Shown here piece after piece: positions 1,919-18,535 of a stretch of 32,000 bases of DNA (position 1 is its first letter; every line of letters begins with the position of its first letter). A program made the translations under genes and the position numbers. The notes under the pieces are model-generated. The model was not told where the DNA came from and did not search any database. It saw nothing but the letters and a program-made list of their open reading frames with translations. Source of the stretch: Candidatus Saccharimonadota bacterium (lineage in GTDB: Bacteria > Patescibacteriota > Gracilibacteria > BD1-5 > UBA6164); NCBI GenBank assembly GCA_965227835.1, contig OZ245768.1:900001-932000 (forward strand), given 5' to 3'.

Positions 1919-1938
1919 AAAAGAGTTTAAAAAAAGAT

Positions 1939-2773: not shown

Positions 2774-3544
2774 ATGAATAAAAATAAAATACATACAATC
2801 CATAATCTTGGAATAAGAAAAGAAATAGGAAGAAGCTTAAAAGCTTCTTCTATTGATTTAATACGAGCTAAATGAGACATAATAAAGGTTATGAAATCTC
2901 TATGATTTAAATCTAAAAATTCATTTAAACCTAAAATAGTATATAGAAAAATTGATATAGACAGGAGTATGTATTTTAATTGTGTATTTCATAATGAAAG
3001 AACAGATTCGTTGATATTGGTAAAAAGAAATGACGGAGATGATTTCTATTATTGTTTTTGATGTGGTACAAGCTGAAGTATAATTGATTTAGTTATGGAA
3101 ATCACAGGAAAAAATATCATACAAACTTTATTTTATATAAAAAATGTATGCAGGATAAAAGAAAAAATAGAGTTTGAAAATTTTGAAATCATTTATGAAT
3201 TACCACCAGAAATGAATCACAGGCAATACTTAGATTATTTTCAAACATGTATGCCAGAAAGGGAAAATAATTATAGTGAATATATAAAATATTGTAATTT
3301 AACAAAAAGTAGTATAAAAGAATATTATCATGAAGAAGAAAAAATAGAAAATAATTATATAGACTATGATATAGAAATGGTAAAAAATAATTTAGACGAA
3401 CAAGATGAAGATGAATGATATGAATTTGATTTTTTTTGAGAATATTCTTATTTTGATAGATGAAAAAAATCAAATTATGATATATATGTCAAAGAAATGG
3501 CAGAAAATATTTTAAAGAGAGGTTGAGAATATACTAACCCCTAA
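2774..3544 (+). CDS. CHC2 (DnaG-type) zinc-finger domain protein, 256 aa, no TOPRIM domain
   Basis: FNCVFHNERTDSLILVKRNDGDDFYYCFGCGTSGSIIDLV, with both Gly of CFGCG..G encoded by TGA. Acidic C-terminal half. In frame with track ORF 3095..3418. Ends TAA at 3542-3544. Confidence 0.8.
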
Positions 3545-3574: not shown

Positions 3575-4084
3575 ATGGAAAAAATAGAAGTACATACTTA
3601 TAAAACAAAAATTTGAGAAATATTTGTGTCATCTTTCAAGTGAAAGATATGTATGTTTAATTTCAAAAAAAACAAGAGAACAAATACATATATAAATAGA
3701 TTAAAAACTGAACTAAAAACAGATATAGTAGAAAAAGAAAATAGCATAATAATAAAAGCAAAAGAAGAATTTGAACAGTATATATCCTGAAATAGAAAAG
3801 ATTTTAGTTTACCAATTTTCACAATTTGAAGTAGTTTTCAAAAAAAAGTTTGGGAAAATATATGAAAGATAAAATATGGGGAAAAAATATCATATTTAGA
3901 TTTGGCAAAGAAAATAAATAACAAAAAAGCCATAAGGGCAGTAGGTACTGCTTGTTGAGCAAATCCTATCATTGTAATGATACCTTGTCATAGAATAATA
4001 TGAAGCAGTTGATGACTATGAGGATACAGCTGATGATTAGAAATAAAAAAATTACTACTAGATTTAGAAGAAAGTAAAAAATAG
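3575..4084 (+). CDS. ogt: methylated-DNA--protein-cysteine methyltransferase (169 aa)
   Basis: AIRAVGTACGANPIIVMIPCHRIIGSSGGLGGYSGGLEIKKLLLDLE contains the canonical PCHR active site. Several of its invariant Gly residues are TGA. Confidence 0.92.
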
Positions 4085-4375: not shown

Positions 4376-5806
4376 ATGCCTAGATGAAGAAATAGTAGTA
4401 TATCAAAAGTATTAAAGGATTATTCAGTAGCTTTTATATGATTATTTTTGATAATAGTACTTATATATAGCTTCTTTTTTTCATGAGGAAATGAAGTTTA
4501 TAATGAAGCAGAAATAGAAAATAATTCCAGTTTAAATCAAGCACAGATATTTTTATCAGATGAAAATTCAGTTGCTTATATAATTTTTGAAAGCTGAAAA
4601 AAAGTCGAGATAAAAGATTCTATATATTTGAATAAATCTGAAAGAGTATCTGTAGAATCATGAAATGTAGATATAAGTTTTCCTTTGGAGGCAAATATGA
4701 AATTATCAGAAAATTGAGATTTTAGCTACAAACAAGATTGAAGTTTCTTTTTAGATTCTGGAGATGTATGGATAGAGGCACTTAAAGATATAAATGTTTC
4801 TATGAAGTATTGAGATGTTTATTTTTCTTCGGACTCTGTTTGAAACTTAAAACAAAACGAAATAGAAACAGGAGTATATTCTATATCTTGAAATATAGAA
4901 GTATCAAATCTAGCTTGAATATCAACTGATTTAGAAAATTGATATAAGATAGATATTAGAAATAATGTAGCTTCTTCAAATGATGTAGATCTAAATTCTT
5001 TGAAAGAGGAGATAGATGATTATTTTAGACTTTCTTCATGGTTCAAGTTAAATTGATGACCAGAGTTATTGAAAGATGTAGAAACAAATACTTGAAGTTT
5101 AATGGAACTCGATACTTCATCTCTAATAAATTTTGATAATGTAAAAGATGAGGGTTATGCAGATTCTAATCCTATAGATTTAAAATGAAGATTTAGTCCA
5201 AACAAGGTATGAAAGATAACCATAAATTCAAAAGAGGTGAAAATGGATAAAGACTTGGGGATATTTTGACTTCAAGGTTTGACTTTGAGTAAACAAACAA
5301 ATGATTTTGTAGTCAAAATATTTGATCAAGAGAATAATATATTGGCAAAAAAGGTTTTAACTCTTTATTCAAATTCACCAATAGGTGGAAATGGTTTGAA
5401 TAACAACTCTTCGGCTTGATTGGAAAACTATTCTGTTAATCAATCAGATTTTGTAATATATGAGCCAACAACTACTTGAAAACTTACAACGACAAGTTCC
5501 AGAGTTACTATTAGGGGTAAGGTTTCAAACAAGGATGTAGCTAGTGTTAGGGTAAATGATTATACTTTGAAGTCTTATAATGGTTCAACCTGGAGGTATC
5601 ATGCTTTTGTAGAACAAGATACTTTGAAAGATTGAGCAAATAATTATGAGATAGAATATTTAAATAGTAAATGAGAGGTTATATATAAAGAGTATTTTTC
5701 AATTTTTAAGAGGAAGCCTTGAAGTATAGTTCCAGTGAGTAGCTGAAATATAGGGAGTCAAGATAAAGGGGTTGATTTGATGAGTTGAGAGGTAGAGATT
5801 GAATAG
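4376..5806 (+). CDS. membrane-anchored hypothetical protein (476 aa)
   Basis: Open for 477 codons under table 25 with many in-frame TGA. Ends TAG at 5804-5806. N-terminal hydrophobic helix (VAFIGLFLIIVLIYSFFF) followed by a Ser/Asn/Asp-rich domain. No family recognised. Confidence 0.75.
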
Positions 5807-5813
5807 GGGGAGT

Positions 5814-5837
5814 AAAAAAAGGCTAAAGCCTTTTTTT
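5814..5837. terminator. bidirectional terminator between convergent genes
   Basis: AAAAAAAGGC-TAAA-GCCTTTTTTT, with an A-run and a T-run on either side. Confidence 0.5.
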
Positions 5838-6008
5838 GTTTGTAGTTAAAGTCAGTTATATTCCAGAGGTAAAGCAAAAAGTTCAACCAATTTATTCAGC
5901 ATAGACCAATATCAAAGAGTACTATTTTGTTTTGAATTCAAACTAAATCTCATCATCATAGGACTTAAAGTTTTTGTGGTTCAATAGCTTCAATTTTTTT
6001 ACTTTTTT

Positions 6009-6740
6009 TTATAAATATCTTCATTTAGAACAATATTTATTCTCAGAAATATATCAAAACATTTGTTTAGTTCTATCTTGAAAAGTTCAATCTCACATAA
6101 GTTTTTCTGCCTTTTCTCAAATTATTTTTCATATTTCTTTTTTTCAATCTGGTCTTGTTAATATATAATATTGTCTTATTTCCTTAATTGGTCTGTCCTC
6201 AGTATTCATATAATATTCAACTTCTCAACACCAAATTTCAGTTTTAATATTTTTTAATTTTTCTCATGAATCCCAAGTGCTTATCAACTTTTCTCAATCT
6301 TTTAGTTTTATTGTCAAATATCTTTTTTTATTTCAAACCCAATTTGTGAATCATTTTACATCAAACATAGTACATTGAAGAGTTGATATAAATGAACAAG
6401 CATTTTGATAATCTCATTTATTTAGAAAATCTATATATTTTTCAATTATTTCTCATCAATTAAGCTTTTGAGTACTAATATCTTGAGGATTATAGATATT
6501 TTTATAACTATATTTTAATTCATCTATATTTTGTGTTAAAGAATTTACATTAGCCAATATACTAGATATTGGAATTATCAATGTATATAGTCAGATTAAT
6601 AATCATAATGCTGAAGATAATAAAGCTATTAAAACATACCAATTTTTATTTTGGAACTTAACATCTTTATCTAAATTACTTTTAAAAAATTCAAATTTTA
6701 ATTTTAAAAATAATAATATTTTAACAACATTTTTGTTCAT
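6009..6740 (-). CDS. single-pass membrane protein, hypothetical (243 aa), last gene of the defence-like operon
   Basis: Checked codon by codon: no TAA/TAG in frame between ATG 6740-6738 and TAA 6011-6009. TM helix WYVLIALLSSALGLLIGLYTLIIPISSIL. The start is 20 nt downstream of the MTase stop. Confidence 0.7.
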
Positions 6741-6760
6741 ATATCTTTTAAAAAACTAAA

Positions 6761-9700
6761 CTACCTCAAACTCTCTTCAACAATCTTTATTTCTTCCTCA
6801 CTCAATCCATACAATTCATAAACCATTTCATCAATCTCTTTTTCAAGTTCTAACTGTCTTGCAGGAGGATTTTTAGAATCATAAAATGATTGTTTTGTAA
6901 TCTCTAAAATTTGATCTGCTTTTTCAATAAAAGGTTTTTGTTTTTCTTCTGAAATTTCTTTAATAGGTACATTTGAGATAGGTGTAGCATACATTTCTAA
7001 CATATCTCATTTTCTTTTTCATCTATTATAAAGCCAAAAATAATATAATTTAGAATTTAATAATGATAATATATAATATAAATCATATGTATCATCTTTC
7101 TGTAATATATATCATAGATCTTTTGATCAATAAAATCTCTCATTAGAATAACTAAATATATTTTTTTTATTTCTGTATGGAAATACTATCTTTTCTCAAT
7201 TAAAATATTCTTCTTTCTTAGGAGTAAATAACACAAAATAGTTTCAATTTTTAAACCATTTTTCTACAATAGATTTAGCTATTTCATTTTTCAAGAAATT
7301 TTCTTTTAACTTTGTAATTAAAAACTTATGTTTTTCAAAGTGCTTATTTAAATCTTCAGGCAAAATTATTGGTTTTCAATTATCTTTTATATATATAAGA
7401 AATAAACTATTATTATTTGGCACATAATACCTAGAAATATCTGAATTTTTATAAAATGGTTTTATATATTCATTTTTAGTGGACTCTGATAATTGCAAAG
7501 ATTCTAATTCTGTATTATTTATAACATATACTCAATCTCATTTTTTTACTCCTTCTAATTTAAATTTTTTAATATGAGCATCTGATATTTTATCAGATAA
7601 TGATACTATTCACATAGAAACATCACAAATTTCTTTTATTAATTTACTTCACTTTATAATTTTATTTAGAATTAAATTATTAATATCTCAATTATCATTT
7701 CAGTCTAACCTAATATATAAACTATTACCATCATATAAATCTTTTTGTGTTATTGCTGTATACTTTGTGTTATTATTTTTTCAATCAAATATTTCACTTA
7801 ATAGGACTCAAAGATTTGATCAAAATGATCATTTTTCTTGTGTACTTATATTTAATGATTTTTTAAATGGTTTATATCACTTTTCAATAAAAGAAATAAT
7901 ATTATGCTGTCATTTTGCATTTTCAAATATATTTAACTCATTAAAATTAATCAATTTAACAATAGAAGATCTTTCATTCAAATCTTTTCTTAAATTTATT
8001 CAACCATCAGCTGTTATATAATAATTAGTCGTTATAAAAGAAAGTATTCCTTCTTCTTTTAATAAATCTAATCAAATATGAAAGAAAAAGTAAAATATAT
8101 CCATCCATCTTGTATAAAATCTTTTTCAAAAATTTGTTTTAAATATATCTTGGAAAATTTTCTCATTTCATTTTTCTCAAATATATGGAGGGTTTCATAT
8201 AACAATATCAAATTTACTATTTCACATCATCAAACTAGGATCAAAGAATTCTGCTGAATGATTTGAATTAAAAGGCTCATATGTTTCTAATTGTTTCGTT
8301 CTTTCTGACTTTGTATTATACATATCAAGAACCAAGTTCTTTCAGATTCATAGAAATTTCTCTATTCTTATTTTAGAGTCCTCTTTATCTTTAATTCAAT
8401 TTGCATTATAATATGAATTCATATATTTCCTCAATGTTTCCACATTTAATTCTTTAATTCATTCAAAATTCAAACTTGCCTGTTGTTTTTCTCATGCTAA
8501 TGGTATCAAAGTATTCGCACATACAAATTTAAACTCAAAATTTGGAAGTGGTTCTGGAGTTTCTTCATCTACTACTAGAGATAACCAAAACCTAAGCCTT
8601 GCAATATCTATTGCACCAGCAGAAATATCTACTCAGTAAATATTATTCCCAATAATATCTCTTTTTATCTTATACATTGAAATTTTTCCTTGATCATTTT
8701 TAAATTCAGCACTATTCATACCAAAAGTCTCATAAATATAATATCTGATAGTGCTTATCTCATGTAAAATCCCCATAGGAAAAGCACCTGATCAGATAGC
8801 TGGATCAAGTATTTTTACTTTTTGAAGTTTTTCATCTACTTCTTCTATGATATTTGCTAGAGTTTCAAATACTTCTTCTGTGATATCTTCTTTTGTAACT
8901 AAGAATTTTTCTTTCAAATCAAATAAAAATCTGATCTTTCTTTCATTTTCTTCTTTTTTTCCTTTGAGGTTATTCAACAGATATGAAATGATACTTTCCT
9001 TTGTCATGTAGTGAACAATCTCTCTCGGGGTGTAAAAAGCCCCAAATTTCTTGTTTAATTCTTTATCTATTTCTATTTTTTTCTTACTTTCGTATATATT
9101 TACTATTTCATCTATGTTTTCAGGACTTATAGAGATCATTTTTTCAAAGATTCTCCCAAGCATTTCAGGATCAACTGCTATATCACTATCATATAAATCA
9201 TCTTCATCTATCGTAAAATTATACAGATCAAAAGTATCTAAAATACCATCTTTGTTTTTATTTGAAAAAATGTCATTTGAGATTTTTGATACATTATCTC
9301 TCCATCATTTATAATCTTCTTTAAAAAGTCATCCATTTAAAAATGGGACTTTCTGATTGAAATATTCATTAAAATCATCATTATCTGTATTATCTTTGTT
9401 TAATCATGCAAAAAACAACCATTCTAAGTAATCATTATAAAAATAACCATGTTTTTCTAGAATAGTTTTTTCTCATGATGTGAAATCATTCCACATATTT
9501 CTCATGAAGTTTTTATCTCAATCTTCTCAGTATTTTCAATCTCTATCTACTCATAACCATCATTTCTTTTGAATAAAATATAAAAATACTATTTTTCAAA
9601 GTAAATTCTTTGTAAAACTTACTATTTCTATTTTTTGAGAATTTAATAGTTTTATAAAATCACTATCATCTGTAATCGCTTTATAAAGTCTGATATAAAG

Positions 9701-10222
9701 AGTAAGATAGTCATTGAAAAACTCTTTTCTTACTACTTCTACATCAAATCTTGATACTAGATCTTCAAAATCACTTACAGTTTTATCCAAATATTTCTCT
9801 GGAGTTTTGGTTTTTTCTCACTCTCATAGCAAAAAACTATATCTTTTAGGATTTGAAGTTTGAGTTTCTCACCATGATTTTTTTAGAGTCAGGAGTGATA
9901 ATCTCCAAGAAGGGCTATGATCACTATAAAATACTATAAGTGCATTTTCTACTCACTTACTCTCCATAATCTTGAAAGCATCTCTTGTAAGAGTAATTCT
10001 TGGATCATTTTTTGATCTCTGCTTGATTTCAAAAATACTTACTTCTTTATCCAAAATGATTTTTCATAACTCAAAGCAACTATCCTTTTCAAAAAACACC
10101 GTTTTTCTATCAATTTGGATTAGTTTGATATCTTCATCAAAATTATCTCCAAATAATCTTACTCTTAGATAATTTAAAAAATCTCTTCTATTTTCTAAAT
10201 TATATGCTTTATTAAATATCAT
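6761..10222 (-). CDS. type IIG restriction endonuclease / gamma-class N6-adenine DNA methyltransferase fusion (1153 aa)
   Basis: Track ORFs 6761..7003, 8792..9163 and 9596..9790 share one frame and join when TGA = Gly. N-terminal candidate PD-(D/E)xK motif (ILDKEVSIFEIKQ). Also VPFLNGGLF, FGAFYTPREIV (motif X), LDPAIGSGAF (motif I), YGVDI, RLRFWLSLV, IGNPPYIG (motif IV), RGKRKGDMLEMYATPISNVPI and a C-terminal YGLSEEEIKIVE. Confidence 0.92.
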
Positions 10223-10234
10223 TTACTCTTAAAA

Positions 10235-10453
10235 TTACATACTAATTACATATTACTTTGGCTTAAGATAAGGAAAATTATTTTAATAAAAGTCTTTCAG
10301 TTACATACCGGTTACATAGATTATGCCCAATATGGAACATATATTACACTTATTGTGTTTAAAATTCTATATTGTGTTAATTTTTTTCGCTATTTGGTGG
10401 TTATATTATATTAAATATACATCTTTTATTGTGTTTAGAATTCTTTATTGTGT
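10235..10453 (-). promoter_or_regulatory. repeat-dense upstream region of the type IIG gene (4x TTACATA, 4x TATTGTGT)
   Basis: TTACATA at 10235, 10246, 10301 and 10312, as pairs spaced 11 bp. TATTGTGT at 10351, 10370, 10427 and 10446, as pairs spaced 19 bp within two 28-nt direct repeats (10350-10377 and 10427-10454). Confidence 0.4.
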
Positions 10454-12109
10454 GGTTTTTATATAAAACCAATCTCATCTTGATCACTTTCTAACTAATT
10501 CTATTAATTTTTTAGATTTCATATTTCTAAAAATATTTTTACATTGATCATCAGTTAATTCTGGAAACATATCTTTAAGATCAGACAATTTAACCTTTCA
10601 AAACTCATCAATATGTTGTAAAACTAAATCATATTTATGTTGTGTCTTTACTCATTTACTTCTAATATATGATCATGTTTTTCATAATTTTGAAGATAAC
10701 TCAGCTGATATATAACATTTCTGAGTTCTTGTTCATCTTATTTCTATATATTTATTTGATTTTAAAGATTCTGCCTCCTTCTTGGTAAAATCAATATTTA
10801 TAGTATTTTTTCAACTTGCAATTTTATCTAATAATAATAAATCATCTAATTCAATATCTGTTCTTTTAGATACTAATTTTGCAAAATCTTCATTTTCAAT
10901 TCTTCATGAAACTATAAAATCTACCCTATTTTCTCTTTGAAAAAATCTAATAGTAGTTCATTTTCTTAATTGAGCTAAATAAGCCTTTTGAAGACCTCAT
11001 CTTTCCTTTTCCATTAAGTTTAAATGTAAGAAAAACTCTGACATAATTGGATTTAAGTATTCTTTTGACTGATTTTCTTTTAATACTTTTTCTAAATCAG
11101 CTCTAAATACTCATGGATTTCTAAATTCTAATGAAACTGGTGTTTGAATTATTTCATTCCATAAATTTATAGTCCAATCTCTATGAGCAAGTGCATTTAT
11201 TAAAAGTTCTTCAATAGTTGCTTTCTCATCATATTGCCTTATATCTGTTCTAAATAAATCAATATCCTTTAAATAAGTATTAAATCTATTTATATTATAT
11301 TTTACTCTTTCTAATGTTAAAATAAGAGGAGCTTTTTGATCTTCTATACTCATTCTTTCTTCTATATCATTCTTAGAATCCATGTATTTCCATGAAATTT
11401 TATTTCTTTCCATAATATATTTATCACTTATACTTGTTTTTCATAAAAATAAAATACAAGTATTATTAGGTATATTATCTGTTAATAATCATATTGAGTT
11501 TAATAAGTTTTTTAAAGGCATATTTAACCATTTGTCATCTTTTTTAGCTTCTTTTAATTTTTCTCTTAAGTATGTAACTGCATTTTCATCTAGGTCTTCT
11601 AATGTAGTTCATTCACATACTAATGAAGACCAATCAATTTTAACTAGAGGTTCATTTAATATTTCTATTTCTTTTTCAGAGGTCATATACTCAAGATTAT
11701 CACCTATTCTTTGATATTTTTTATTATGGGCAATAACTATTTTTCTAGGATTATGCTTTGGAATTTCGAAAATCCATACTATTTTTCATGTATCTTCTGT
11801 TTTATATTCTTTTATATCAAATTTTTCACTATCTAAATTCAATGTATTTCATAAAATTCTTTGTTTTATGTTCTCAATTGTATATCAAGAAAAAGATTTT
11901 ATTCATTTTATATCCAATGTTTCATCTTCTACTCAAACTATCAGAAAACCACCTTCAACATTTGAAAGTCATGATATATAAGAAATTACATCTTCTTTTT
12001 CTCTTCATGAAATATTTTGTTTTAATGACGAGAATTCTTTATGTTCAATATTTTTATTTTCCTTAGGAAATTGTAATTTAATATATTCTTTTAAATCTTT
12101 TTCTAACAT
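10445..12109 (-). CDS. AlbA_2 (Schlafen-like) / HATPase_c_4-like protein with C-terminal wHTH-like tail (554 aa)
   Basis: N-terminal ISGLSNVEGGFLIVGVEDE (AlbA_2-type). Central EELLINALAHRDW, the signature of the RecG-like 'putative transcriptional regulator' family. In frame with track ORF 11111..11413. ATG 12109-12107, TAA 10447-10445. Confidence 0.85.
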
Positions 12110-12120
12110 ATTAAAATAGT

Positions 12121-15100
12121 TTATTTATTAAATTCCTCACTGATTATTAAATCAAGTGTTTCTTCGTTGAAGTTTTTTGATACTTCTAATATTCATTTCA
12201 GATATTCTTCAGTAATCAATTCTTTAATTAGTTCAGCATCTTTTTGCCAAGTAGTTTTTGTGATTTTTCTTATTTTCTTCATATATACAAGAGGAAGACC
12301 TCAAAGTTTAATTACCTCTTTTAAAAGATTGAAATAATTATCATCAGTTTCATTGTATATATCTTCTGCATTTTCATATGCTTTTTTTTGCTGAATATTC
12401 ATATTAGAATCAGCATGAGGGTTTTTTATTTCTTTTTTCAATTTTTCATATGATTTATAAAAACCTTTTGTAACTTCTTTAGGTTCTTCTGTAAGTTCTG
12501 ATTTAAATAAGTTAAATGCTTCCACTAAACTCAAAGGTTCAACTTGAGATGTTTTCTCATTATAGAAGTAAAAAATTAAGTTGGATTTTTTCTTAGCAAA
12601 AACTAATACTCATTTTACTCATTTATTTATGGTTCTTAAAACTCTTGTCCTCCTAGGAATTTTTTCAATTTTATCTAATATTTCAGGATCGATTTCTTGA
12701 GCTTTCTTAAAGTCATTTAAAAACTCACTATCCCAAGATTTATCTTCATTTAAAGTTGTATCTTCTAAAATAGCTTTTTTATAAAATGATCATACCTCCT
12801 CATCTCATGACAGTGTTTTTACATCTACTCATAAGACTGTAGCTATCATTTTTATCTTTAATTTTGATATTTTCTTAATATTTACATGTTCTTCTCAAAC
12901 TATTGATGGAAAATAATTATATACATATAAATTATCAAATACTTTTTTATTAATTCTGTTTATTCTTCAAATTCTTTGAATTACTTTTGTTGGATTATAT
13001 GGTATATCATAATTTATAATCACTCATGCTCTATGAAGATTATATCATTCTGATATAGCATCAGTTCAAAGCAATATATCATAATCATTTTTTTGTTTAC
13101 TTTCTTCAACTCATGCATCAAAATTTAGCCTAACTTGTTCTTTTAGAGTATCTGTTTTATGTTTTCAAGTAACAACAAGTACTCTATCGTTTAATTTCTC
13201 TTGTAAATATAGGATAGTATCTGCAAACATAGAAAAAACTATTATTTTCCTCGTCTCATCTTCCTGTCTAATTTCTTGTATTTTTTCTACAAAAGTATCT
13301 AGTTTCGGATCGTTTTTTATGCTTTCCCACTTTTGTAATAAATCATTTAAAAACTTTCTATCATATTTTAAATCATCTATAAATTTTTGACTTAAGTCTG
13401 ACTTTGGAATTAAAATTCAATCTTTTGACTCGATTAATTCTTTCACCTTCTCTACACTTTCTGATATTTCTAAATCTTCATCAAATACATCATCAATATT
13501 TGGCAGTCCTCATTTTTTAATTACAGGAACTCCATGAAGTAATTCTAAATAGTTAAAAATATTATCAATAGAATTAACAATTGATGTAAGAGTCTTTTTA
13601 AATGAATATATCGAGCTTTCAAATCTAGATACTAATAATCTCCTTATAAAAGATGGCATATTTTTTTGTCTTCATTCTAAAAGTGCATACTCATATCATA
13701 GTGTTTCTTCAATTTCTTTTTGATATTTATCTGGATTATTCAAATATGTTAATATTTTATATCTTGCTCACTTAAAATAAACAGGATTTCACTGATTATC
13801 TGCATCTACCAGTTGTTCCAAAGTTTCAGTATAAAGATCTTCTATATCATCCAATGGAAAGTTTAATTCTTTTGGATCTGATACATTTGCAAATTCATAT
13901 CACTCTTTTTCTAAATCTTCTCTATAGCTATCTATATTTTGTAAATCTACTCTTGATCTTCTAACGACCACGGGTCATATAATTTGCCTTATTTCTTCAG
14001 AGAGTTTTTTCACTTTTTTTAATGTCTCTTCTTCGCTCGTTAATGAATTTTTTCCATCTTTTCTTATTTCCAAATATTTATTTTGTAACTCTCCAAAATC
14101 ATTTATTAATCATTTTTTTGTATGAATAGTTGGATTTGCTGGTATTTGAAATAACTTTATAAGGTTAAATATATCTTCAGGTTTATTATTAAAAGGAGTA
14201 GCAGATAATAAAATAACTTTTTTTCAATGACATATTTGGTGTAAATTTCAATAATCTATTGTTTCAGCATTTCTATATTTATGTGCTTCATCTATTAATA
14301 CTACTTCAGCCTTATGAATATCATGATTATCATATAAAAATGCCTTATCTATACTTCATGAACTAAAGATTTCAGCCTTTAAATTAAAATCTTTTACATA
14401 TTCCTTCCACAAATCTATTAAATGAGGAGGACATATAATAAGTGCTTTTTTATCTATATTTCAAAGTAAAGTTGATCAAATAATTGATTTTCATAATCAT
14501 ACTACATCAGCAATTATTACTCAGTTATGCTCATTAATTATTTTTAATCCTTTTTTTATTGCATCAACTTGATATTCTAGGTTAGAAAATTTCTCTTTTG
14601 TTAAATCTTTGGGTGTTTTTATTCACTGCTCATCTTTAAAATATTCATATAATAGTCTGATATAACAATAATATGGTTTTGTAAGTTTTAACCATGTTTC
14701 TTGCTTTAGCATTTTAACAACATCATCATTGTCTCATCAATTAGTTATTGAAATTGAATAATTCTTCCAAATATCCTCAAACATACCTTGAGCCATATTA
14801 TAATTATCTGGAACTCTATCTATAGTGTTATATTCAAATCTTCACGATAGTCATGAATATGTTAAATTGCTTGATCATGATATTACCGTTCAAGGAAGTG
14901 TTCATCACATTGAAAAATCTCCATCATGAGAAAAAAGATACAGTTTTGTATGGTTTGGATCTATAGTTCTTCTAATTTCTAAGCTTCCGTCTATAATCTT
15001 ATCTATATATATTTGAACAGCTTCTGATCATTCTAAATTATCAAGAGTTTCTGTTTTATTAAAAATATCTTTTAGTTGTTTTATTGTATCTGATTTAGTA

Positions 15101-15336
15101 GCAGTTTTAAATCATACTTCATTTACTTTTATAGCAGAATTAACAATTGATATTTCTGCATTCATACCAATAAGTATTCTAACTTTTTTATCTATTAGCT
15201 CCTTATATATCTCTTTAAAACCTGAAAAATAAAAAAAACCAACTAAAATATCCATTTTTGAAGTAGCTGGTAATATTTTTGTTATTATTTCAGATAATAG
15301 TACATCAGTATTTGTTATTGCTTTATAAAAAGACAT
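12121..15336 (-). CDS. PLD (HKD) nuclease domain fused to SF2 (SNF2/DEAH-like) helicase (1071 aa)
   Basis: DILVGFFYFSGF, HTKLYLFSHD (HxK..D), GSSNLTYSG, then helicase motifs ADVVGLGKS (I), LIDEAHKYRN (II), LLSATPFNN (III), LLGTDAISEGYNLH (V) and QRIGRINR (VI). Track ORFs 15112..15336 and 12301..12534 are in frame. Confidence 0.92.
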
Positions 15337-15356
15337 TTTCCCTTTAAAATTTAAAT

Positions 15357-15385
15357 ATTATAATAACCTAGTTTTTACGGGTAAA
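15357..15385 (-). promoter_or_regulatory. candidate promoter of the defence-like operon (TTTACC-N17-TATAAT)
   Basis: TATAAT on the minus strand at 15362-15357. The -35 overlaps the palindrome TTTTTAC-GG-GTAAAAA (15372-15387). Confidence 0.3.
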
Positions 15386-15411
15386 AATTATAAAAAATTT
15401 TAGCTTAAAAT

Positions 15412-15458
15412 CTAGCAAAAAACAAATAAAAAGAAAAGTTTTTCTAAACTTTTCTTTT
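15412..15458 (-). terminator. candidate terminator after znuB
   Basis: A 13-bp A/T-rich stem AAAAGAAAAGTTT / AAACTTTTCTTTT (15429-15441 / 15446-15458), followed on the minus strand by a U-rich tract. The stem overlaps the znuB stop codon. Confidence 0.4.
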
Positions 15459-16244
15459 TATTACTAAACTCAAAACAAAAAAAGTAATCAAAATCAAAAC
15501 AATAGTAGCTCAACTAGAAGTGTCTAAAAAATATGAAATAAAAAGACCTAAAATCACACCAAGTACTGATAAAAAACTAGAAATTAAAAAAGATAGCTTT
15601 AAATTAGGTGAAATAATTTTTGAAATATTAGCAGGAATAACTAAAAAAGCTCAAATAAGAAGTATTCAAAATATTTTTATACTTATAGCTATAAACAAAG
15701 ATAAAAATATCAAAAAAACTAAGTTGTAAATATCAACATTCAATCATCTTGATTTAGCCAAATCCTCATTTATTATTACACTGATAAATTTTCTTCAAAA
15801 AAAGAAGAAAAATATAGATAAGAAAAATAGTAAAAAAGACAAAATTAATATATCAAAAGAAGATATAAAAAGAATAGATCAAAATAAAAAACTTTTTATA
15901 TCCAGAGTCAAATTGCCAAGAAATCAAGTGATAAAAATTCATCCAGATATTCAAATTTGTGCTATTATTTCTTTTGTAGACTCTTTTGTAATAAACTTGG
16001 TTTTTTCTATAAAAAAAATAGAAAAACTTCAAATTATTCAAAACAAAAAAGAAAATAAATAATAATTTCAATTAAAAAGCAAAGAAACAGCAATTCATAA
16101 AAACAAAAAATTAGATATAGAATGAGTTACATTTGCCTCCTTTCTCATAACAATAAATATACCTAAAAAAGAAGCAATAATAGATATTAAAACTCATCAA
16201 ATAATTGCTTTTTGAAAAAATGGATATTGTAGTATTTCAAACAT
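15444..16244 (-). CDS. znuB: ABC-3 family metal (zinc) transporter permease (266 aa)
   Basis: GGVLISIIASFLGIFIVMRKEA, LFGSILFISSFDI, INEDLAKSRGLNV and GILLIGAFLVIPA are typical ZnuB/ABC-3 blocks. Confidence 0.85.
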
Positions 16245-16337
16245 AATATAAATTTATTTATTTTTCTGCCAAAATGTTAATTTTTTCGGGATTCCCTTAA
16301 GATTCTAAATAAAAGATAATTCTTTTATTTTTGGGGG

Positions 16338-16495
16338 CAACAGAGAGCTTTAGCTCTTTGAACAAAGAAATTTCCCAGACAAGGGGTTTTAACCCCTTGC
16401 AAAATTCAACCCTTTGAACAAAGCAATTTACAGTCAACAGAGGGCTTTAGCTTTCTGATTTCATGTCCTTTTCAACAGAGAGCTTTAGCTCTTTG
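16338..16495. repeat. cluster of REP-like GC-rich hairpin repeats inside the znuC-znuB spacer
   Basis: CAACAGAG[AG]GCTTTAGCT[CT]T[TC]TG occurs at 16338-16360, 16435-16457 and 16473-16495. CTTTGAACAAAG occurs at 16356-16367 and 16412-16423. CAAGGGG-TTTTAA-CCCCTTG lies at 16380-16399. Confidence 0.6.
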
Positions 16496-16591
16496 CTATT
16501 TTAGGAAGTTTTTATTTGCTTGTTATTTATCCTATATACAGTAAAACAATTTGCACCTTAGTTTACTATAGAAGATCTCTTCAAAATATAA

Positions 16592-17326
16592 TTAGTTTTT
16601 ACAATTCTTATGGGAGCTATGAGAATTAGGATTGTGTTTGTAAGGTGAAATATAGTTTCAAAAAATATTTTTAATAATAGGATTAGATTCAATTTCACTA
16701 GGGGTTCAATGACAACAAAAATTGTTATCATGAAGACAAACTACTTTATCACAGTTGCTATAGACCAAATTTATATTATGAGAAACTAGTATTATAGATA
16801 TATGTGGAAAAATATCTTTAACCTCTTTTATAATTTTATAAAAAACTTCTTCTCAAACTATATCAATTCAAGCTGTAGGTTCATCAAGTAAAATTAAATC
16901 TGGATTTTTTAAAAGAGAAGAAACTACCAAAATTTTTTGAAGTTGTCATCAGCTCAATTTATCAACTCTTTTGTTTACAAGATCTTTAGAATTAAATTTA
17001 GATAAAAGATTTTCTATATCCTCCCTATTTACCTTTTCGTTATATACTTTTATAAATTCACTTACCAAAATAGGAAAAGATTCATCTAAATTAATCTTTT
17101 GAGGTACATATGAAAGTTTTTTATAATTTCTAAATATATTTCAAGAAATTGGTTTTTGTATCCCTGCTATTACTTTTAGTAAACTTGATTTTCAAGCACC
17201 ATTTAGTCATATAATACTAAGTATTTCTCAAGAAAAAACGGAAAAACTTATGTTTTTTAAAACATAAGTTTTTTTGTTATCATAAGATAAATTGATGTTT
17301 TTTAATTTTAATACTTCCCTATTCAT
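16592..17326 (-). CDS. znuC: ABC transporter ATP-binding protein (244 aa)
   Basis: Walker A GLNGAGKSS (two Gly = TGA), signature LSGGQLQK, Walker B LILLDEPTAGID. The start ATG overlaps the znuA stop (ATGAATAG). Confidence 0.9.
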
Positions 17327-18422
17327 ATATTTTTTCAAGTGCTTTTAAATTGTTACTATAATTATTTATATATCAATTTTTAGAATCATCACTTCAAAAA
17401 GGATTTAATATATCAACTTCCAAACTATAATCCAAAGCAAGTTTATCTAAATTGGAATCTTTAAATTGAGGTTCTTTATAAAAATTCTTTACTCAGTGTT
17501 TTGTTATTTCATCTATAATTTCTTTCATTTCTAAAGAATTTGGATCACTTAAAACATTTGTTCTAAATACAAGTTTTTTACTACTATCTATATTTAGTTC
17601 TGAAAAAAGATAGGAGTAAGCATCATGGAAAACTATAAACTCAGATTGAGTTTTTCAACTGATTCTATCCAAAAAGCTTTGCTTAATTCATAGTAATTCC
17701 TTTTCTAGAGATTCGTAGTTATTAGAAAAATAATTAGAATTTTGTGGCTGGATTTCTGAAAGTTTAGATTCTATATTTTTTGCAATAAGTAAAGCATTTT
17801 CTGCAGAAGTCCAAACATGTGGATCAAGTTCATGTCAATTTTCATAGTGGTCATCTTGATGTTCATCTTTATAATCATTTTCATTATGTTCTTCTCAATG
17901 GTGATCATCGTCATGAGTTTCACTATGTTTTTTATAATTTTTTTCTAAGTGGTTTTCCTCATCATGATTTTTATCTTCGTGATTTTCCTCATCATGATGT
18001 TCGTCTTCGTGGTGTTCATCTTCGTGATGATGATGATCATCTGATCATTCAATCATTTCTATTCATTTAGTAGTAATTAAAACATTTTTATCTTCCAAAG
18101 CTTTATCTAAAAATCAGTCAATATGGTCATATCCAAGTGAAAGTATAAGGTAAGATTCTTGAATTTGTATCATTTGACTCGGTTTTAAATCAAATCCATG
18201 AGGGCTAACTCATGCTGGAACAAGTGATTTTGCTTCTACATAATCTCAACCAATATAATTAGTAATAGAAGCAAGTGGAATAATAGAAGTAGTAATTTGT
18301 AATTTTTCAGCTTGTTTTTCAATATTAGTATTTTTTTGTGAGATTTGTTTTGTATTTTGGTTATTACAAGAAACAAGTAAAAAAGATAGCACAAGTATAA
18401 TAAATAAAGATATTTTTTTCAT
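17319..18422 (-). CDS. znuA: zinc ABC transporter substrate-binding lipoprotein with His/Asp/Glu-rich loop (367 aa)
   Basis: Lipobox LLVSC. SPHGFDLKPSQ and DPHVWTS metal-ligand blocks. Long loop DDHHHHEDEHHEDEHHDEENHEDKNHDEENH..., whose antisense is track ORF 17819..18070. Confidence 0.9.
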
Positions 18423-18535
18423 AGAAATATTTTTTTAAATAATAAAGTATATATTAAGAAAACCCTGAAAAATTCATTTAAAAGAAAAAAAATCTTCAGC
18501 CTTTCCTTAATAACCTTCAAAGAAGATATGAAAAA

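What the first reader, a model, noticed from the sequence alone, without database searches (positions are those of the whole stretch)
6009..15336. Composite restriction/defence-like operon: PLD-SF2 helicase, AlbA_2/HATPase_c_4 protein, type IIG REase-MTase and a membrane protein
Four co-directional genes are separated by gaps of 11, 222 and 20 nt. Gene 1 fuses an HKD/PLD nuclease (HTKLYLFSHD, GSSNLTYSG) to a complete SF2 translocase (motifs I-VI). Gene 2 is a Schlafen-like AlbA_2 domain plus the ..INALAHRDW.. HATPase_c_4-type core and a wHTH-like tail. Gene 3 is a full type IIG enzyme with its own putative PD-(D/E)xK nuclease (D-x6-E-I-K), a gamma-class N6A methyltransferase and a target-recognition domain. 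Gene 4 is a single-pass membrane protein. The set lacks the hallmark partners of named systems: no PglZ/BrxC/BrxL (BREX), no DrmA/DrmB (DISARM), no HsdS/HsdR (type I) and no Mod/Res pair (type III). It combines one methyltransferase with two unrelated nuclease modules and a translocase. I do not recognise this as a named system. One inference is that the MTase marks self DNA while the PLD-helicase acts as a second, translocating restriction arm, with the AlbA_2 protein as sensor or regulator.
Basis: partly seen in the sequence, partly recalled or inferred. Interest (0 to 1): 0.8.

Follow-up and report, generated by a model that had tools for sequence, protein, structure and literature searches.

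The report
Two-gene PLD-helicase/methylase restriction module
The four genes are real, but only two form a conserved unit: a helicase fused to a DNA-cutting domain plus a DNA methylase, a widespread and apparently unnamed restriction-type phage defence; the other two are optional passenger genes of the kind that lodge inside such defence operons.

Summary
Read with TGA=Gly (code 25), four intact minus-strand genes lie at 6009-15336 with gaps of 11, 222 and 20 nt, and the domain calls are confirmed.

The "composite four-gene system" reading is only partly right. The conserved core is two genes. Gene 1 is an N-terminal single-HKD PLD nuclease fused to an SNF2 motor. Gene 3 is an Eco57I/PglX-type N6-adenine methylase with a built-in TRD.
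- In 80 loci from many phyla, the methylase lies co-directionally just downstream of the helicase in 73; five of the other seven contigs end within about 1 kb of the helicase gene.
- The reverse test, starting from the methylase's N-terminal domain, gives 10/10.
- The two proteins co-diverge (r=0.85).
- No third family occurs in more than 21% of loci.

The nuclease motif proposed for gene 3 is not conserved, so gene 1 is probably the only restriction arm.

Gene 2 (Schlafen/AlbA_2 + HATPase_c_4 + wHTH) is a facultative companion: 17/80 loci, always co-directional, position variable. Gene 4 (a membrane-anchored, four-cysteine protein) is a lineage-restricted cassette, also found inside a type I operon.

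The closest characterised relative is MANTIS/Gao_RL, but MtsA and MtsB are absent and the motor is SNF2-type. I rate it a new variant of a known kind. No function was tested.

The parts
12121..15336 (-). Gene 1 (1071 aa): helicase-nuclease, the R-like core component. It has an N-terminal single-HKD PLD nuclease (aa 19-190, nt 14767-15282; H129-x-K131 and GSSN at 154-157). It also has an SNF2-type SF2 motor (N-lobe aa 253-466, nt 13939-14580; Helicase_C aa 685-796, nt 12949-13284) and a conserved C-terminal region of about 270 aa with no annotation.
   Evidence: Pfam and PADLOC hits. Catalytic H129, K131, N157 and E168 and the SF2 motifs are invariant in 18 diverse homologs. The family profile matches DDM1, RapA, Rad54 and CHD4. 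There is only one HKD motif. The family is large and full-length: 3869 hits at E<=1e-10.
10445..12109 (-). Gene 2 (554 aa): Schlafen/AlbA_2 domain (aa 17-140) + HATPase_c_4-like region (aa ~300-390, INALAHRDW) + C-terminal wHTH-like tail. It is a facultative gene embedded in the slot between helicase and methylase.
   Evidence: Pfam. Homologs occupy the same slot in L009, L011, L020, L041, L060, L063, L070 and L074. An HMM of the family finds it in 17/80 loci, all co-directional. E17, E/D22, K24, GG53-54 and N305-A-x-x-H309 are invariant in 12/12 members. An ortholog (80% id) sits in L088 in a different chromosomal context.
10223..10444 (-). The 222-nt spacer between gene 2 and gene 3. It carries direct repeats: a 46-nt repeat pair (10339-10384 and 10415-10460) and TATGTAAC/T four times. 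It may be an internal promoter or operator delivered with the inserted cassette.
   Evidence: Sequence read directly and the repeat finder family D1. Insert-free relatives have helicase-to-methylase junctions of 4-20 nt. L088 and L092 have unrelated spacers, each with its own repeats. Function is inferred only.
6761..10222 (-). Gene 3 (1153 aa): methyltransferase and specificity subunit, the M/S-like core component. It has a family-specific N-terminal domain (aa 1-~150, nt ~9773-10222) and an MmeI-like helical spacer. It also has a gamma-class N6-adenine methylase (motif I DPAIGSGAF at 473-481, NPPY at 677-680; Eco57I aa 526-766, MmeI_Mtase from aa 458; together nt 7925-8851) and a TaqI_C-type TRD (aa 966-1087, nt 6962-7327).
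   Evidence: Pfam and PADLOC REase_MTase_IIG at 1e-95. AF2 model of the same gene (its code-4 translation, P0133): pLDDT 82.5. Foldseek hits: CamA, BseCI, PglX/BrxX, MmeI, BpuSI, DrdV. N-domain conservation, with the proposed nuclease motif not conserved. The TRD is swapped relative to the close relative L092.
6009..6740 (-). Gene 4 (243 aa): N-terminal membrane anchor (aa ~36-56, predicted N-in/C-out) plus a ~180-aa domain with four invariant cysteines. It is a lineage-restricted accessory cassette. Function unknown.
   Evidence: No Pfam, PADLOC or NCBIfam hit. Only 12 homologs. The alignment shows invariant C115, C123, C171 and C237. Hydropathy and K/R bias. Contexts: downstream of a distant PLD-SNF2/methylase pair (L094, L096-L099), inside a type I operon (L095), and in a non-R-M context (L100).
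15357..15385 (-). Promoter-like site (TTTACC-17-TATAAT) 21 nt upstream of the gene 1 ATG. It lies downstream of an A/T-rich hairpin plus T-run that overlaps the znuB stop codon (~15420-15459).
   Evidence: Consensus scan (10/12 match, but the total number of promoter-like sites equals the shuffle expectation, so this is weak evidence). The hairpin was read from the sequence.

Best explanation
The locus is a two-gene, ATP-dependent restriction-modification-like defence module carrying two embedded passenger genes.

Core. Gene 3 is a single-chain gamma-class N6-adenine methyltransferase with its own TRD. It reads a short, probably asymmetric, DNA site and methylates host copies, probably on one strand as MmeI, PglX and MtsC do. 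Gene 1 is the restriction subunit. Its SNF2-type motor uses ATP to translocate or communicate along DNA. Its single-HKD PLD domain must pair with a second copy to form one active site that cuts unmodified DNA. The methylase supplies target specificity to the helicase-nuclease. The family-specific N-terminal domain of the methylase and/or the C-terminal domain of the helicase is the likely coupling interface. If methylation is hemi, cleavage should favour inverted pairs of unmodified sites, as in type III, type ISP and MANTIS.

Passengers. Gene 2 (Schlafen nuclease-like + GHKL-like ATPase region + wHTH) and gene 4 (a membrane-anchored Cys-rich protein) are facultative cassettes embedded in the operon. 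They are either autonomous second-line defence genes or modulators. Gene 2 may be an RNase effector triggered by restriction products.

Shown here: gene structure, domains, invariance of catalytic residues, obligate two-way synteny, co-divergence, and the facultative nature of genes 2 and 4.

Inferred: every biochemical step (methylation, hemimethylation, ATP-driven translocation, PLD dimer cleavage, physical coupling, defence phenotype).
For: Pairing:
- The helicase is followed co-directionally by the methylase in 4/4 first neighbourhoods, which span 41-62% identity.
- The same holds in 73/80 species-level loci from Gracilibacteria, Bacteroidota, Planctomycetota, Elusimicrobiota, Cloacimonadota, Spirochaetota, Ignavibacteriota, Bacillota, Fibrobacterota and Moraniibacteriota. 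Of the 7 misses, 5 are contigs that end within about 1 kb of the helicase gene.
- 31 loci have apparent gaps of 43 nt or less.
- Reciprocal test from the methylase N-domain: 9/9 IMG/VR loci and 1/1 plasmid have the helicase directly upstream.
- Helicase and methylase (first 640 aa) co-diverge: r=0.85, Mantel p=0.001.
- No third family occurs in more than 21% of loci.

Catalytic competence:
- H129, K131, N157 and E168 of the HKD motif, Walker A K283, DEAH 349-352 and motif VI arginines are invariant. There is a single HKD motif.
- Methylase motifs I and IV are present.
- TRD swapping occurs between close relatives, as in real R-M systems.

Gene 3 probably lacks its own nuclease.

Precedent. In MANTIS/Gao_RL, the methylase MtsC directs a dimeric N-terminal-PLD + SF2 helicase-nuclease, MtsD. 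That system shows hemimethylation and a preference for inverted sites.

Passengers:
- The slot between the core genes holds AlbA_2/HATPase_c_4, Fic, RhuM, Bro-N or SatD+DUF3307 in different loci.
- Embedding of defence genes inside Hma, BREX, DISARM and type I systems is documented.
- Schlafen + ATPase + DNA-binding proteins are reported as tightly associated with R-M systems.
Against: No functional data exist for this family in the searched literature.

MtsD cleavage has not been reconstituted in vitro even for MANTIS. In MANTIS the methylase needs MtsA and MtsB to work. A two-gene version might therefore be incomplete or work differently.

The SNF2 motor is not the SauUSI/MtsD type of SF2 helicase, so the analogy to MtsD is architectural only.

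Gene 3 and its nearest relatives do carry D58...E65-x-K67, and the family keeps [D/E]60...E65, so a degenerate or unusual nuclease in the N-domain cannot be ruled out. I could not obtain a domain-level fold comparison: the single-sequence model failed (pLDDT 40).

SNF2 + PglX-type methylase pairs in BREX type 3 act without evident DNA degradation, so a non-cleaving mechanism is possible.

Genes 2 and 4 co-occur with the pair in two different gene orders within Gracilibacteria. That leaves room for a lineage-specific functional link.
Confidence: 0.7

Rival explanations
1. One reading: an integrated four-gene composite system. Gene 3 is an autonomous type IIG restriction-methylase, gene 1 is a second translocating restriction arm, gene 2 is the system's sensor or regulator, and gene 4 is a membrane component. 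All four are needed for full function.
For: All four genes are co-directional and tightly spaced. The same four gene families recur in another order (helicase, methylase, gene 4-like, AlbA_2) in L094 and L096-L098, around a distant branch of the pair. Close relatives keep an AlbA_2-type gene in the slot (L088, L092). AlbA_2 genes are always co-directional with the pair (17/17). Gene 3 itself has D58/E65/K67.
Against: Gene 4 is found in 0/80 loci and gene 2's family in only 17/80, at three different positions. In L092 (helicase 92% id) the slot holds a different, non-orthologous AlbA_2 protein. Other loci hold Fic, RhuM, Bro-N or SatD in the same slot, and about 47 of the 74 loci with a measurable helicase-methylase gap hold nothing. 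Gene 4 homologs also sit in a type I operon and in a non-R-M context. The nuclease motif of gene 3 is not conserved in the family.
Confidence: 0.15
2. Two independent systems that merely travel together. Gene 3 is a self-sufficient type IIG R-M enzyme. Gene 1 is an autonomous helicase-nuclease defence, SauUSI-like (type IV) or HmaA/Hna-like, that needs no methylase.
For: PADLOC scores gene 3 as REase_MTase_IIG at 1e-95. PLD-helicase single proteins such as SauUSI, and HmaA (Snf2 + nuclease), can defend alone.
Against: Two-way near-obligate synteny (73/80 and 10/10), junctions of 4-43 nt suggesting translational coupling, and co-divergence at r=0.85 go beyond defence-island adjacency. Gene 1 has no recognisable target-recognition domain. 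The methylase N-domain is found only next to the helicase.
Confidence: 0.08
3. A BREX/DISARM-like epigenetic exclusion module, or a degenerate remnant of class 1 DISARM (DrmD + DrmMI + DrmC). It would block phage replication without classical site-directed cleavage.
For: The best named hits of gene 1 are DrmD (PADLOC 1.4e-29; NCBIfam 126 bits). Gene 3 hits PglX and DrmMI weakly. SNF2 + PglX-type methylase pairs recur in BREX-3, DISARM-1, ARMADA and the BR systems.
Against: All scores are far below the curated cut-offs (126 vs 610 bits; 89 vs 500 bits). DrmA/DrmB, PglZ/BrxC and YprA are absent from the window and are not recurrent in the 80 loci. The pair is too widespread and too well conserved to be a decay product, and the PLD catalytic residues are invariant.
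Confidence: 0.05
4. Not defence: an epigenetic-regulation or DNA-repair pair (an orphan-like methylase plus a remodeler-type SNF2 ATPase).
For: The SNF2 profile resembles RapA and DDM1. No phenotype is known.
Against: The distribution is patchy and HGT-like across phyla. Loci sit next to integrases or resolvases and defence genes (AbiEii, OLD-type AAA_15/TOPRIM + UvrD helicase (Gabija-like), TIR, SduA_C, Mrr, MORC). The TRD is swapped between close relatives. The slot is filled with R-M hitch-hikers. The fused nuclease is conserved.
Confidence: 0.02

Closest known systems
MANTIS / Gao_RL (BREX-related type 2): MtsA-MtsB-MtsC-MtsD (bioRxiv 10.64898/2026.09.23.753747)
   Same: An N6-adenine methylase with its own TRD sets specificity for an effector that has an N-terminal HKD/PLD nuclease fused to an SF2 ATPase. 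That effector must dimerise to form a single PLD site. It is a methylation-based self/non-self system.
   Different: There is no DUF499 AAA+ (MtsA) and no DUF3870 (MtsB) in the window or recurrently in 80 loci. The motor here is SNF2-type, not SauUSI-like. Gene 1 scores 113 bits against NCBIfam 'phospholipD_antiphage', whose cut-off is 1100, and matches the PADLOC PLD_Helicase model only in the C-lobe. That these two models represent MtsD is my assumption. The methylase is about 1150 aa with an extra conserved N-domain and an MmeI-like helical spacer.
Class 1 DISARM (DrmA, DrmB, DrmC-PLD, DrmD-SNF2, DrmMI)
   Same: An SNF2 helicase, a PLD nuclease and an Eco57I/PglX-type N6A methylase occur together. 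DrmD is the best named hit of gene 1.
   Different: The defining DrmA (YprA-type helicase) and DrmB (DUF1998) are absent. PLD and SNF2 are fused in one protein. Scores are far below the equivalog cut-offs (126 vs 610 bits).
Type III and type ISP/type I restriction-modification
   Same: The proposed logic is the same: a methylase/specificity component plus an SF2 helicase-nuclease that needs ATP. Like type I operons, this operon tolerates embedded genes (RhuM, Fic, AlbA_2 and others).
   Different: The nuclease is PLD/HKD, not PD-(D/E)xK. The motor is SNF2, not the Res/HsdR clade. The methylase is a single-chain MmeI/PglX-type enzyme with its own TRD, not Mod or HsdM+HsdS. No Pfam or NCBIfam type I or type III family is matched, except the generic ResIII helicase domain.
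Type IIG/IIL enzymes (Eco57I, MmeI, BpuSI, DrdV, Cj0031)
   Same: The methylase + TRD architecture and the helical spacer are shared. The PADLOC REase_MTase_IIG model scores 1e-95, and Foldseek hits MmeI, BpuSI and DrdV.
   Different: The N-terminal domain shows no conserved PD-(D/E)xK triad and no MmeI_N or other nuclease family hit. The protein is obligately paired with a helicase-nuclease. Milman et al. 2023 (PMC9881135, Table 3) noted Cj0031-like genes with an adjacent PLD+SNF CDS, but only as context.
Hma (HmaA Snf2 + C-terminal PD-(D/E)xK, HmaB DUF1156 methylase, HmaC DUF499 ATPase) = BR type 1
   Same: It has a Snf2 helicase fused to a nuclease plus a methylase, and the operon is a hotspot for embedded defence genes. 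Gene 1 hits the HmaA model at 5e-22 in the helicase part.
   Different: In Hma the nuclease is of a different type and at the other end of the protein. The methylase belongs to a different family (DUF1156). HmaC has no counterpart here.
SauUSI (type IV) and CglI/NgoAVII (R: PLD+B3; N: ATPase)
   Same: These are ATP-dependent restriction enzymes that use a PLD nuclease coupled to an SF2-type motor. Some homologs give a faint RE_NgoFVII Pfam hit in the PLD domain. The description of CglI/NgoAVII is from my own knowledge.
   Different: SauUSI recognises modified DNA through its own TRD and has no methylase partner. CglI/NgoAVII splits nuclease and ATPase into two proteins, uses a B3 DNA-binding domain and a C5 methylase.
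R-M-associated prokaryotic Schlafen proteins (Nat Commun 2026, PMC13462974) and 'guilt-by-embedding' genes (Payne et al., bioRxiv 10.1101/2024.01.29.577857): comparators for gene 2 and gene 4
   Same: Gene 2 has the reported Schlafen + ATPase + DNA-binding architecture described as tightly associated with R-M/BREX. It carries an invariant E-x4-[E/D]-x-K motif, and the catalytic residues of CbCash are E17/D22. Genes 2 and 4 sit inside a multi-gene defence operon.
   Different: The host operon type (PLD-SNF2 + methylase) was not among those surveyed (Hma, BREX, DISARM, type I). No activation mechanism is known. The equivalence of gene 2's motif to CbCash E17/D22 rests on the motif, not on an alignment made here.

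Membership tests
MANTIS / Gao_RL (BR type 2) | MtsA: DUF499 ORC/Cdc6-clade AAA+ ATPase encoded in the operon | tested here: not met
   No DUF499 or AAA+ hit among the window proteins that were scanned. No recurrent third family in 80 loci.
MANTIS / Gao_RL (BR type 2) | MtsB: small DUF3870 protein | tested here: not met
   No such Pfam hit in the window. Gene 4 has no family hit at all.
MANTIS / Gao_RL (BR type 2) | MtsD: N-terminal HKD/PLD + SF2 helicase-like ATPase effector | tested here: inconclusive
   The architecture is the same. However, gene 1 is far below the cut-off of NCBIfam phospholipD_antiphage (113 vs 1100 bits) and matches PADLOC PLD_Helicase only at aa 660-797. The motor is SNF2-like.
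MANTIS / Gao_RL (BR type 2) | MtsC: N6-adenine methylase with a TRD that directs both modification and restriction; hemimethylation of asymmetric sites | not testable with these tools
   The methylase + TRD architecture is present. The methylation pattern needs SMRT/ONT data.
DISARM class 1 | DrmA (YprA-type helicase) + DrmB (DUF1998) core | tested here: not met
   Absent from the window. Not recurrent in 80 loci.
DISARM class 1 | DrmD SNF2 helicase / DrmMI methylase / DrmC PLD at equivalog level | tested here: not met
   DISARM_DrmD scores 126 bits against a cut-off of 610. DrmMI scores only 1.2e-11 in PADLOC. PLD is fused to SNF2 instead of being a separate DrmC.
BREX (any type) | PglZ and BrxC/PglY present; PglX methylase at family cut-off | tested here: not met
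   No PglZ or BrxC in the window. Gene 3 scores 89 bits against BREX_1_MTaseX, whose cut-off is 500.
Hma (BR type 1) | HmaA = Snf2 + C-terminal DUF3883/NOV_C PD-(D/E)xK; HmaB = DUF1156 methylase; HmaC = DUF499 ATPase | tested here: not met
   Gene 1 has an N-terminal PLD and no DUF3883. Gene 3 is Eco57I-type. There is no DUF499.
Type IIG restriction-modification enzyme | N-terminal PD-(D/E)xK endonuclease domain with a conserved catalytic triad in the same polypeptide as the methylase and TRD | tested here: inconclusive
   The methylase and TRD parts are met. For the nuclease part, D58 is absent in 81% of the family and K67 is Lys in 24/75. No nuclease Pfam hit was found in ten members. Gene 3 itself has D58/E65/K67. 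No domain-level fold comparison was possible.
Type IIG restriction-modification enzyme | Autonomous single-protein system (no obligate partner) | tested here: not met
   An obligate helicase-nuclease partner: 73/80 forward, 10/10 reciprocal, r=0.85.
Type I / type III R-M | HsdM+HsdS+HsdR, or Mod+Res with a PD-(D/E)xK nuclease | tested here: not met
   No HsdM_N, Methylase_S, HSDR_N or Mod-type hits. Only the generic ResIII helicase domain is matched. The nuclease is PLD.
SNF2-family ATPase (gene 1 motor) | SNF2-rel_dom + Helicase_C with motifs I-VI; similarity to Snf2 remodelers | tested here: met
   Pfam SNF2-rel_dom scores 40.5 bits (cut-off 24.9) and Helicase_C 59.5 bits. The profile hits DDM1, RapA, Rad54 and CHD4 in both lobes. 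The motifs are invariant.
PLD/HKD nuclease superfamily (gene 1 N-terminus) | HxK(x)4D...GSxN motif; one copy per chain implies dimerisation | tested here: met
   PLDc_2 scores 35.3 bits (cut-off 27). H129, K131 and N157 are invariant. There is a single motif. Dimerisation is inferred from BfiI, SauUSI and MtsD.
AlbA_2/Schlafen + HATPase_c_4 proteins (gene 2) | SLFN_AlbA_2 domain with the acidic catalytic motif; HATPase_c_4 region; DNA-binding tail | tested here: met
   SLFN_AlbA_2 scores 37.9 bits (cut-off 25.3). HATPase_c_4 is sub-threshold in gene 2 (19.6 vs 26 bits) but strong in the slot homologs that BLAST links to gene 2. The motifs are invariant. The wHTH in gene 2 was not detected by Pfam. 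It was detected (HTH_24/HTH_5) in the L009 homolog.

The most novel reading that the evidence does not exclude
The PLD-SNF2 helicase plus N-domain Eco57I/PglX-type methylase pair is a distinct, widespread and so far unnamed class of NTP-dependent restriction-modification. It would be a minimal two-protein counterpart of MANTIS/DISARM-1/BREX-3, currently mis-filed as 'type IIG + orphan helicase'. Its methylase N-terminal domain would be a dedicated docking or licensing module for the motor-nuclease. The operon would also serve as a landing pad for Schlafen-ATPase effectors (gene 2) that are switched on by the DNA ends or ssDNA the PLD-helicase produces, giving a coupled restriction-then-abortive two-layer defence.
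Probability: 0.3. Interest if true: 0.75.

Novelty: new variant of a known kind. Interest (0 to 1): 0.55.

Why it matters
Annotation. Thousands of genes now labelled 'type IIG R-M enzyme' or 'N-6 DNA methylase' next to a 'helicase-related/SNF2-related protein' would be re-read as one two-subunit, ATP-dependent restriction system with a PLD nuclease. That changes REBASE-, PADLOC- and DefenseFinder-style calls. It could also explain predicted type IIG enzymes that do not cut.

Mechanism. The pair would be the simplest natural version of the recurring 'SNF2/SF2 motor + PglX-type methylase' theme seen in BREX-3, DISARM-1, ARMADA, Hma and MANTIS. A two-protein system is much easier to reconstitute than those 4-8 gene systems. 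It could show how a hemimethylating methylase licenses a motor-nuclease without a DUF499/BrxC scaffold.

Embedded genes. The locus gives a clean genetic setting for testing what R-M-embedded Schlafen-ATPase proteins do, which the 2026 Schlafen paper explicitly leaves open.

Scope. It documents such defence in code-25 Gracilibacteria, whose public record mistranslates these genes (TGA read as Trp).

Tried and rejected
1. Table 11 ORF calling gives only fragments. Table 4 versus table 25 was resolved in favour of 25 from the motif glycines.

2. I tested whether the small ORFs downstream of the methylase in other loci are gene 4 homologs. They are not, and they are unrelated to one another. The idea of a three-gene core was dropped.

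3. tblastn with gene 2 under-detected its family (5/80 loci). It was replaced by an HMM of the slot proteins (17/80).

I used P0133, the same gene translated with TGA=W, so the model carries 48 G-to-W substitutions.

5. Folding the N-domain alone without an alignment gave pLDDT 40 and was discarded. No domain-level fold search was therefore possible. Foldseek on the full model is dominated by the methylase and TRD.

6. phmmer and hmmsearch of gene 3 and its family against PDB sequences find nothing for residues 1-640.

7. The promoter/terminator scan is uninformative in this 25% GC DNA: 96 sites found versus 86 expected.

8. The metagenome scan for gene 4 returned a single locus, probably because TGA-coded glycines break the back-translated patterns.

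9. Look-up of P0001 in the look-up of encoding contigs failed, and the listing of cluster members gave no accession or name. The source genome remains unidentified beyond 'a 1.49-Mb NCBI/ENA contig, code-25 lineage'.

10. A search for inverted repeats or TRD shufflons in the locus found nothing convincing.

11. Literature searches for a named PLD-SNF2 + methylase pair found only a passing mention (PMC9881135) and related but different systems (the BR systems, ARMADA, Hma, MANTIS).

12. Phage genomes: only weak partial hits to the helicase. The module is not a typical phage gene.

Full report
**1. The observation**

Under the standard bacterial code, the interval 5000-16500 contains only ORFs of 123 aa or less. 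Treating TGA as a sense codon raises the window's ORF content from 10.5 kb to 43 kb. It also produces four long minus-strand ORFs.

TGA encodes the glycines of Walker A (VgLgKS), the PLD gSSN, methylase motif I (AIgSG) and IgNPPY. The code is therefore 25 (TGA=Gly; Gracilibacteria/Absconditabacteria), not 4.

| Gene | Coordinates (minus strand) | Length |
|---|---|---|
| 1 | 12121-15336 | 1071 aa |
| 2 | 10445-12109 | 554 aa |
| 3 | 6761-10222 | 1153 aa |
| 4 | 6009-6740 | 243 aa |

Pfam confirms the domain calls:
- Gene 1: PLDc_2, SNF2-rel_dom/ResIII and Helicase_C.
- Gene 2: SLFN_AlbA_2 plus a sub-threshold HATPase_c_4.
- Gene 3: Eco57I, MmeI_Mtase and TaqI_C.
- Gene 4: no hit.

PADLOC and NCBIfam give only partial, below-cut-off hits to DrmD, BrxH, HmaA, DpdE, PglX and DrmMI. 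Gene 3 gives a strong REase_MTase_IIG hit.

The neighbours are ordinary chromosomal genes. On one side is a secreted protein gene. On the other is a zinc-uptake cluster: the znuB-type ABC-3 permease, a CobW GTPase and a Fur-family repressor were confirmed by Pfam. The ABC ATPase, the ZnuA-like binding protein and a second CobW paralog were read from their sequences only.

**2. What is conserved**

Gene 1 belongs to a large full-length family. There are 3869 hits at E<=1e-10, and the best 120 are at least 41% identical over at least 93% of the length.

Four neighbourhoods at 62%, 45%, 43% and 41% identity were examined: two Gracilibacteria, one Bacteroidales and one Planctomycetota. All show the PLD-SNF2 gene followed at once by an Eco57I/TaqI_C methylase of 958-1118 aa.

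I examined the best 80 loci, which come from about ten phyla.
- In 73 of the 80, a gene 3 homolog lies co-directionally just downstream.
- Of the seven exceptions, five are contigs that end within about 1 kb of the helicase gene (two of them inside it). L051 has 2.4 kb downstream with no hit, and L031 was missed only by the full-length query.
- Thirty-one loci have apparent junctions of 43 nt or less.

The reverse test also passes. The conserved N-terminal domain of the methylase occurs once in 72,556 plasmids, directly downstream of the helicase. It also occurs in nine IMG/VR loci, and all nine have the full-length helicase ending just upstream.

Pairwise identities of the helicase and of the first 640 aa of the methylase correlate at r=0.85 (Mantel p=0.001, 64 loci). 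Clustering all ORFs of the 80 loci finds no third family in more than 21% of loci.

The conserved unit is therefore a two-gene module.

**3. Gene 3: a type IIG enzyme?**

The AF2 model (pLDDT 82.5) resembles CamA and BseCI in the methylase and TRD. It also resembles PglX/BrxX, MmeI, BpuSI and DrdV.

The first ~150 residues form a strongly conserved α-β-β-α-β-β-β domain. R75, R107, R127, S109 and S129 are invariant or nearly so (at least 72 of 75).

- D58 lies in an insertion absent from 81% of partner methylases.
- K67 is Lys in 24/75 and Arg in 17/75.
- Only E65 is conserved.

No Pfam family, nuclease or other, matches residues 1-200 in ten diverse members. The MmeI helical spacer and the methylase regions are recognised. 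Sequence searches against the PDB find nothing for residues 1-640.

I could not obtain a domain-level fold comparison, so a cryptic nuclease is not excluded. The simplest reading is that this domain is not a conventional endonuclease and that the obligate PLD-helicase partner supplies cleavage.

**4. Gene 1**

H129, K131, N157 and E168 of the HKD motif and all SF2 motifs are invariant across the family.

There is one HKD per chain. As in BfiI, SauUSI and MtsD, that implies a dimer forming a single active site. This step is an inference.

The family profile matches true Snf2 remodelers in both lobes (DDM1, RapA, Rad54, CHD4). No SauUSI entry was among the 60 hits listed (of 75 at E<=0.1).

**5. 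Genes 2 and 4**

*The slot between the core genes.* It is empty in about 47 of the 74 loci in which a helicase-to-methylase gap could be measured. In the rest it holds one of the following:
- AlbA_2/HATPase_c_4 proteins of gene 2's family (8 loci)
- Fic (1 locus)
- RhuM (6 loci)
- RhuM+Fic (1 locus)
- Bro-N (2 loci)
- SatD+DUF3307 (2 loci)

From my own knowledge, this is the repertoire usually found inside type I operons.

*Gene 2's family.* An HMM of the family finds it in 17/80 loci, always co-directional. It sits between the core genes in 9 loci and downstream in 4. It lies upstream in 4: directly in 3, and about 5 kb away in the fourth. It is also directly upstream in a Parabacteroides plasmid.

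Close relatives show cassette turnover:
- L088 (helicase 88% id) has a gene 2 ortholog (80% id) in a different chromosomal context.
- L092 (92% id) has a different, non-orthologous AlbA_2 protein and a swapped TRD.
- L090 and L091 (about 70% id) have an empty slot.

Gene 2's family keeps E17-x4-[E/D]22-x-K24 and N305-A-x-x-H309 in 12/12 members. A 2026 paper shows that prokaryotic Schlafen domains are tRNA nucleases (CbCash catalytic residues E17/D22). It also reports Schlafen + ATPase + DNA-binding proteins as tightly associated with R-M and BREX, with the mechanism unknown.

*Gene 4.* It has only 12 homologs. Their contexts are:
- directly after the methylase of a distant branch of the same pair (helicase 33% id, yet gene 4 80% id), followed there by an AlbA_2 gene (L094, L096-L098; the short contig L099 shows only the downstream part of this arrangement);
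- inside a type I operon, HsdM-NYN-HsdS-Abi_C-gene 4-HsdR (L095);
- next to topA and housekeeping-like genes (L100).

The protein has one TM segment, a predicted N-in/C-out topology and four invariant cysteines.

Both genes fit the published 'embedded defence gene' pattern. They do not look like core subunits. A lineage-specific functional link is not excluded.

**6. Comparison with known systems**

Every named multi-gene system fails on a defining component:
- DISARM: no DrmA/DrmB.
- BREX: no PglZ/BrxC.
- Hma (BR type 1): no DUF499 or DUF1156, and a different nuclease.
- ARMADA: no YprA-type helicase.
- Types I and III: no Hsd or Mod/Res genes.

The closest characterised system is MANTIS/Gao_RL (preprint, September 2026). 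In it a TRD-bearing N6A methylase, MtsC, directs a dimeric N-terminal-PLD + SF2 helicase effector, MtsD. The system shows hemimethylation and a preference for inverted sites. The window's module shares this logic. It differs in lacking MtsA and MtsB, in having an SNF2-type motor, and in its larger methylase with an extra N-domain.

[quoted passage not shown] 2023. PGAP labels the genes 'SNF2-related protein' and 'N-6 DNA methylase'.

The searchable library covers open-access papers and bioRxiv only, so an earlier description elsewhere cannot be excluded.

**7. Verdict**

It should be recast as a widespread two-gene PLD-SNF2/methylase restriction-type module, here carrying two embedded accessory genes. 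It is not a four-gene composite with two nucleases.

Mechanistically it is a new variant of NTP-dependent restriction-modification. Every biochemical step is inferred. Interest is moderate to high (0.55). The points in its favour are that it is widespread, mis-annotated, simple enough to reconstitute, and a good setting for studying R-M-embedded Schlafen proteins.

Noticed in passing
window 6761-10222 and 12121-15336 (public proteins P0133 and P0001): The public record of this genome (a 1,489,121-bp NCBI/ENA contig) translates these genes with TGA=Trp (code 4). P0133 is identical to gene 3 except that all 48 TGA codons read W, including the motif glycines. P0001, at 96% identity to gene 1, is presumably the same case. 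The motif positions show the code is 25 (TGA=Gly). Many database homologs show the same W-for-G artefact.
   Followed up: partly
window 10223-10460 (minus strand): The gene 2-gene 3 spacer holds a 46-nt direct repeat (10339-10384 and 10415-10460, 78% id), the second copy overlapping the 3' end of gene 2. It also has TATGTAAC/T four times. The equivalent spacers in L088 and L092 are unrelated in sequence, but each has its own direct repeats. Insert-free relatives have 4-20 nt junctions. This may be a promoter or operator delivered with the cassette.
   Followed up: partly
L095:2966-11828: A gene 4 homolog (67% id) is embedded in a classical type I operon, together with NYN and Abi_C genes: HsdM-NYN-x-HsdS-Abi_C-gene 4-HsdR. 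A membrane-anchored, probably extracytoplasmic Cys-rich protein recurring inside R-M operons is unexplained.
   Followed up: partly
L094:288-12310 (also L096-L098; L099 partial): A distant branch of the pair (helicase 33% id) is followed by gene 4-like, AlbA_2/HATPase_c_4, PC4-like and MORC-type GHKL ATPase genes. In L094 it is preceded by an Mrr_cat nuclease. This looks like a larger conserved Gracilibacteria defence island.
   Followed up: no
L003:13313-19613; L090:16656-17762; L101:14675-19252: The genes downstream of the methylase vary. L003 has a second, shorter Eco57I-type methylase in tandem. L090 has an SduA_C (Shedu-type) nuclease. The Parabacteroides plasmid has a TIR-domain protein and an AAA protein. 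L006 has an OLD-type AAA_15/TOPRIM protein followed by a UvrD-type helicase (Gabija-like) a few genes downstream.
   Followed up: no
window 22769-23206 and 30684-31121 (minus strand): Two IS200/IS605-type Y1 transposase genes (TnpA, 145 aa) with identical protein sequences lie within the array of leucine-rich-repeat-like paralogs, about 7.9 kb apart.
   Followed up: no
window 21972-31679 (plus strand): An array of seven paralogous genes shares an N-terminus (MVDKNNILEEKLTPKDRLK...). Each has a variable number of ~22-aa 'LGNLxxVGGxLxL' repeats and a shared C-terminal domain. One of them (26145-28415) is an in-frame head-to-tail fusion of two copies. The one representative scanned (23814-25142) has no Pfam hit. 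This is a likely surface or variable protein family undergoing recombination.
   Followed up: no
window 742-2486 (plus strand): Three tandem paralogs of a ~155-aa protein with a signal-peptide-like N-terminus (MKTLKNIFLTSI...), conserved cysteines and no Pfam hit.
   Followed up: no
window 15444-21130 (minus strand): A zinc-uptake cluster lies next to the module. Pfam confirmed the ZnuB-type ABC-3 permease, one CobW-family GTPase and a Fur/Zur-type repressor. By sequence only, it also includes an ABC ATPase, a ZnuA-like binding protein with a long His/Asp/Glu-rich loop, and a second CobW paralog. One CobW has a His7 tract. An A/T-rich hairpin plus T-run overlapping the znuB stop (~15420-15459) probably ends that transcription unit before gene 1.
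   Followed up: partly
window 2774-3544 and 3575-4084 (plus strand): A 256-aa protein carries only a DnaG-type CHC2 zinc ribbon (no primase catalytic domain was detected). It is followed by an O6-methylguanine-DNA methyltransferase (Ogt/MGMT).
   Followed up: no
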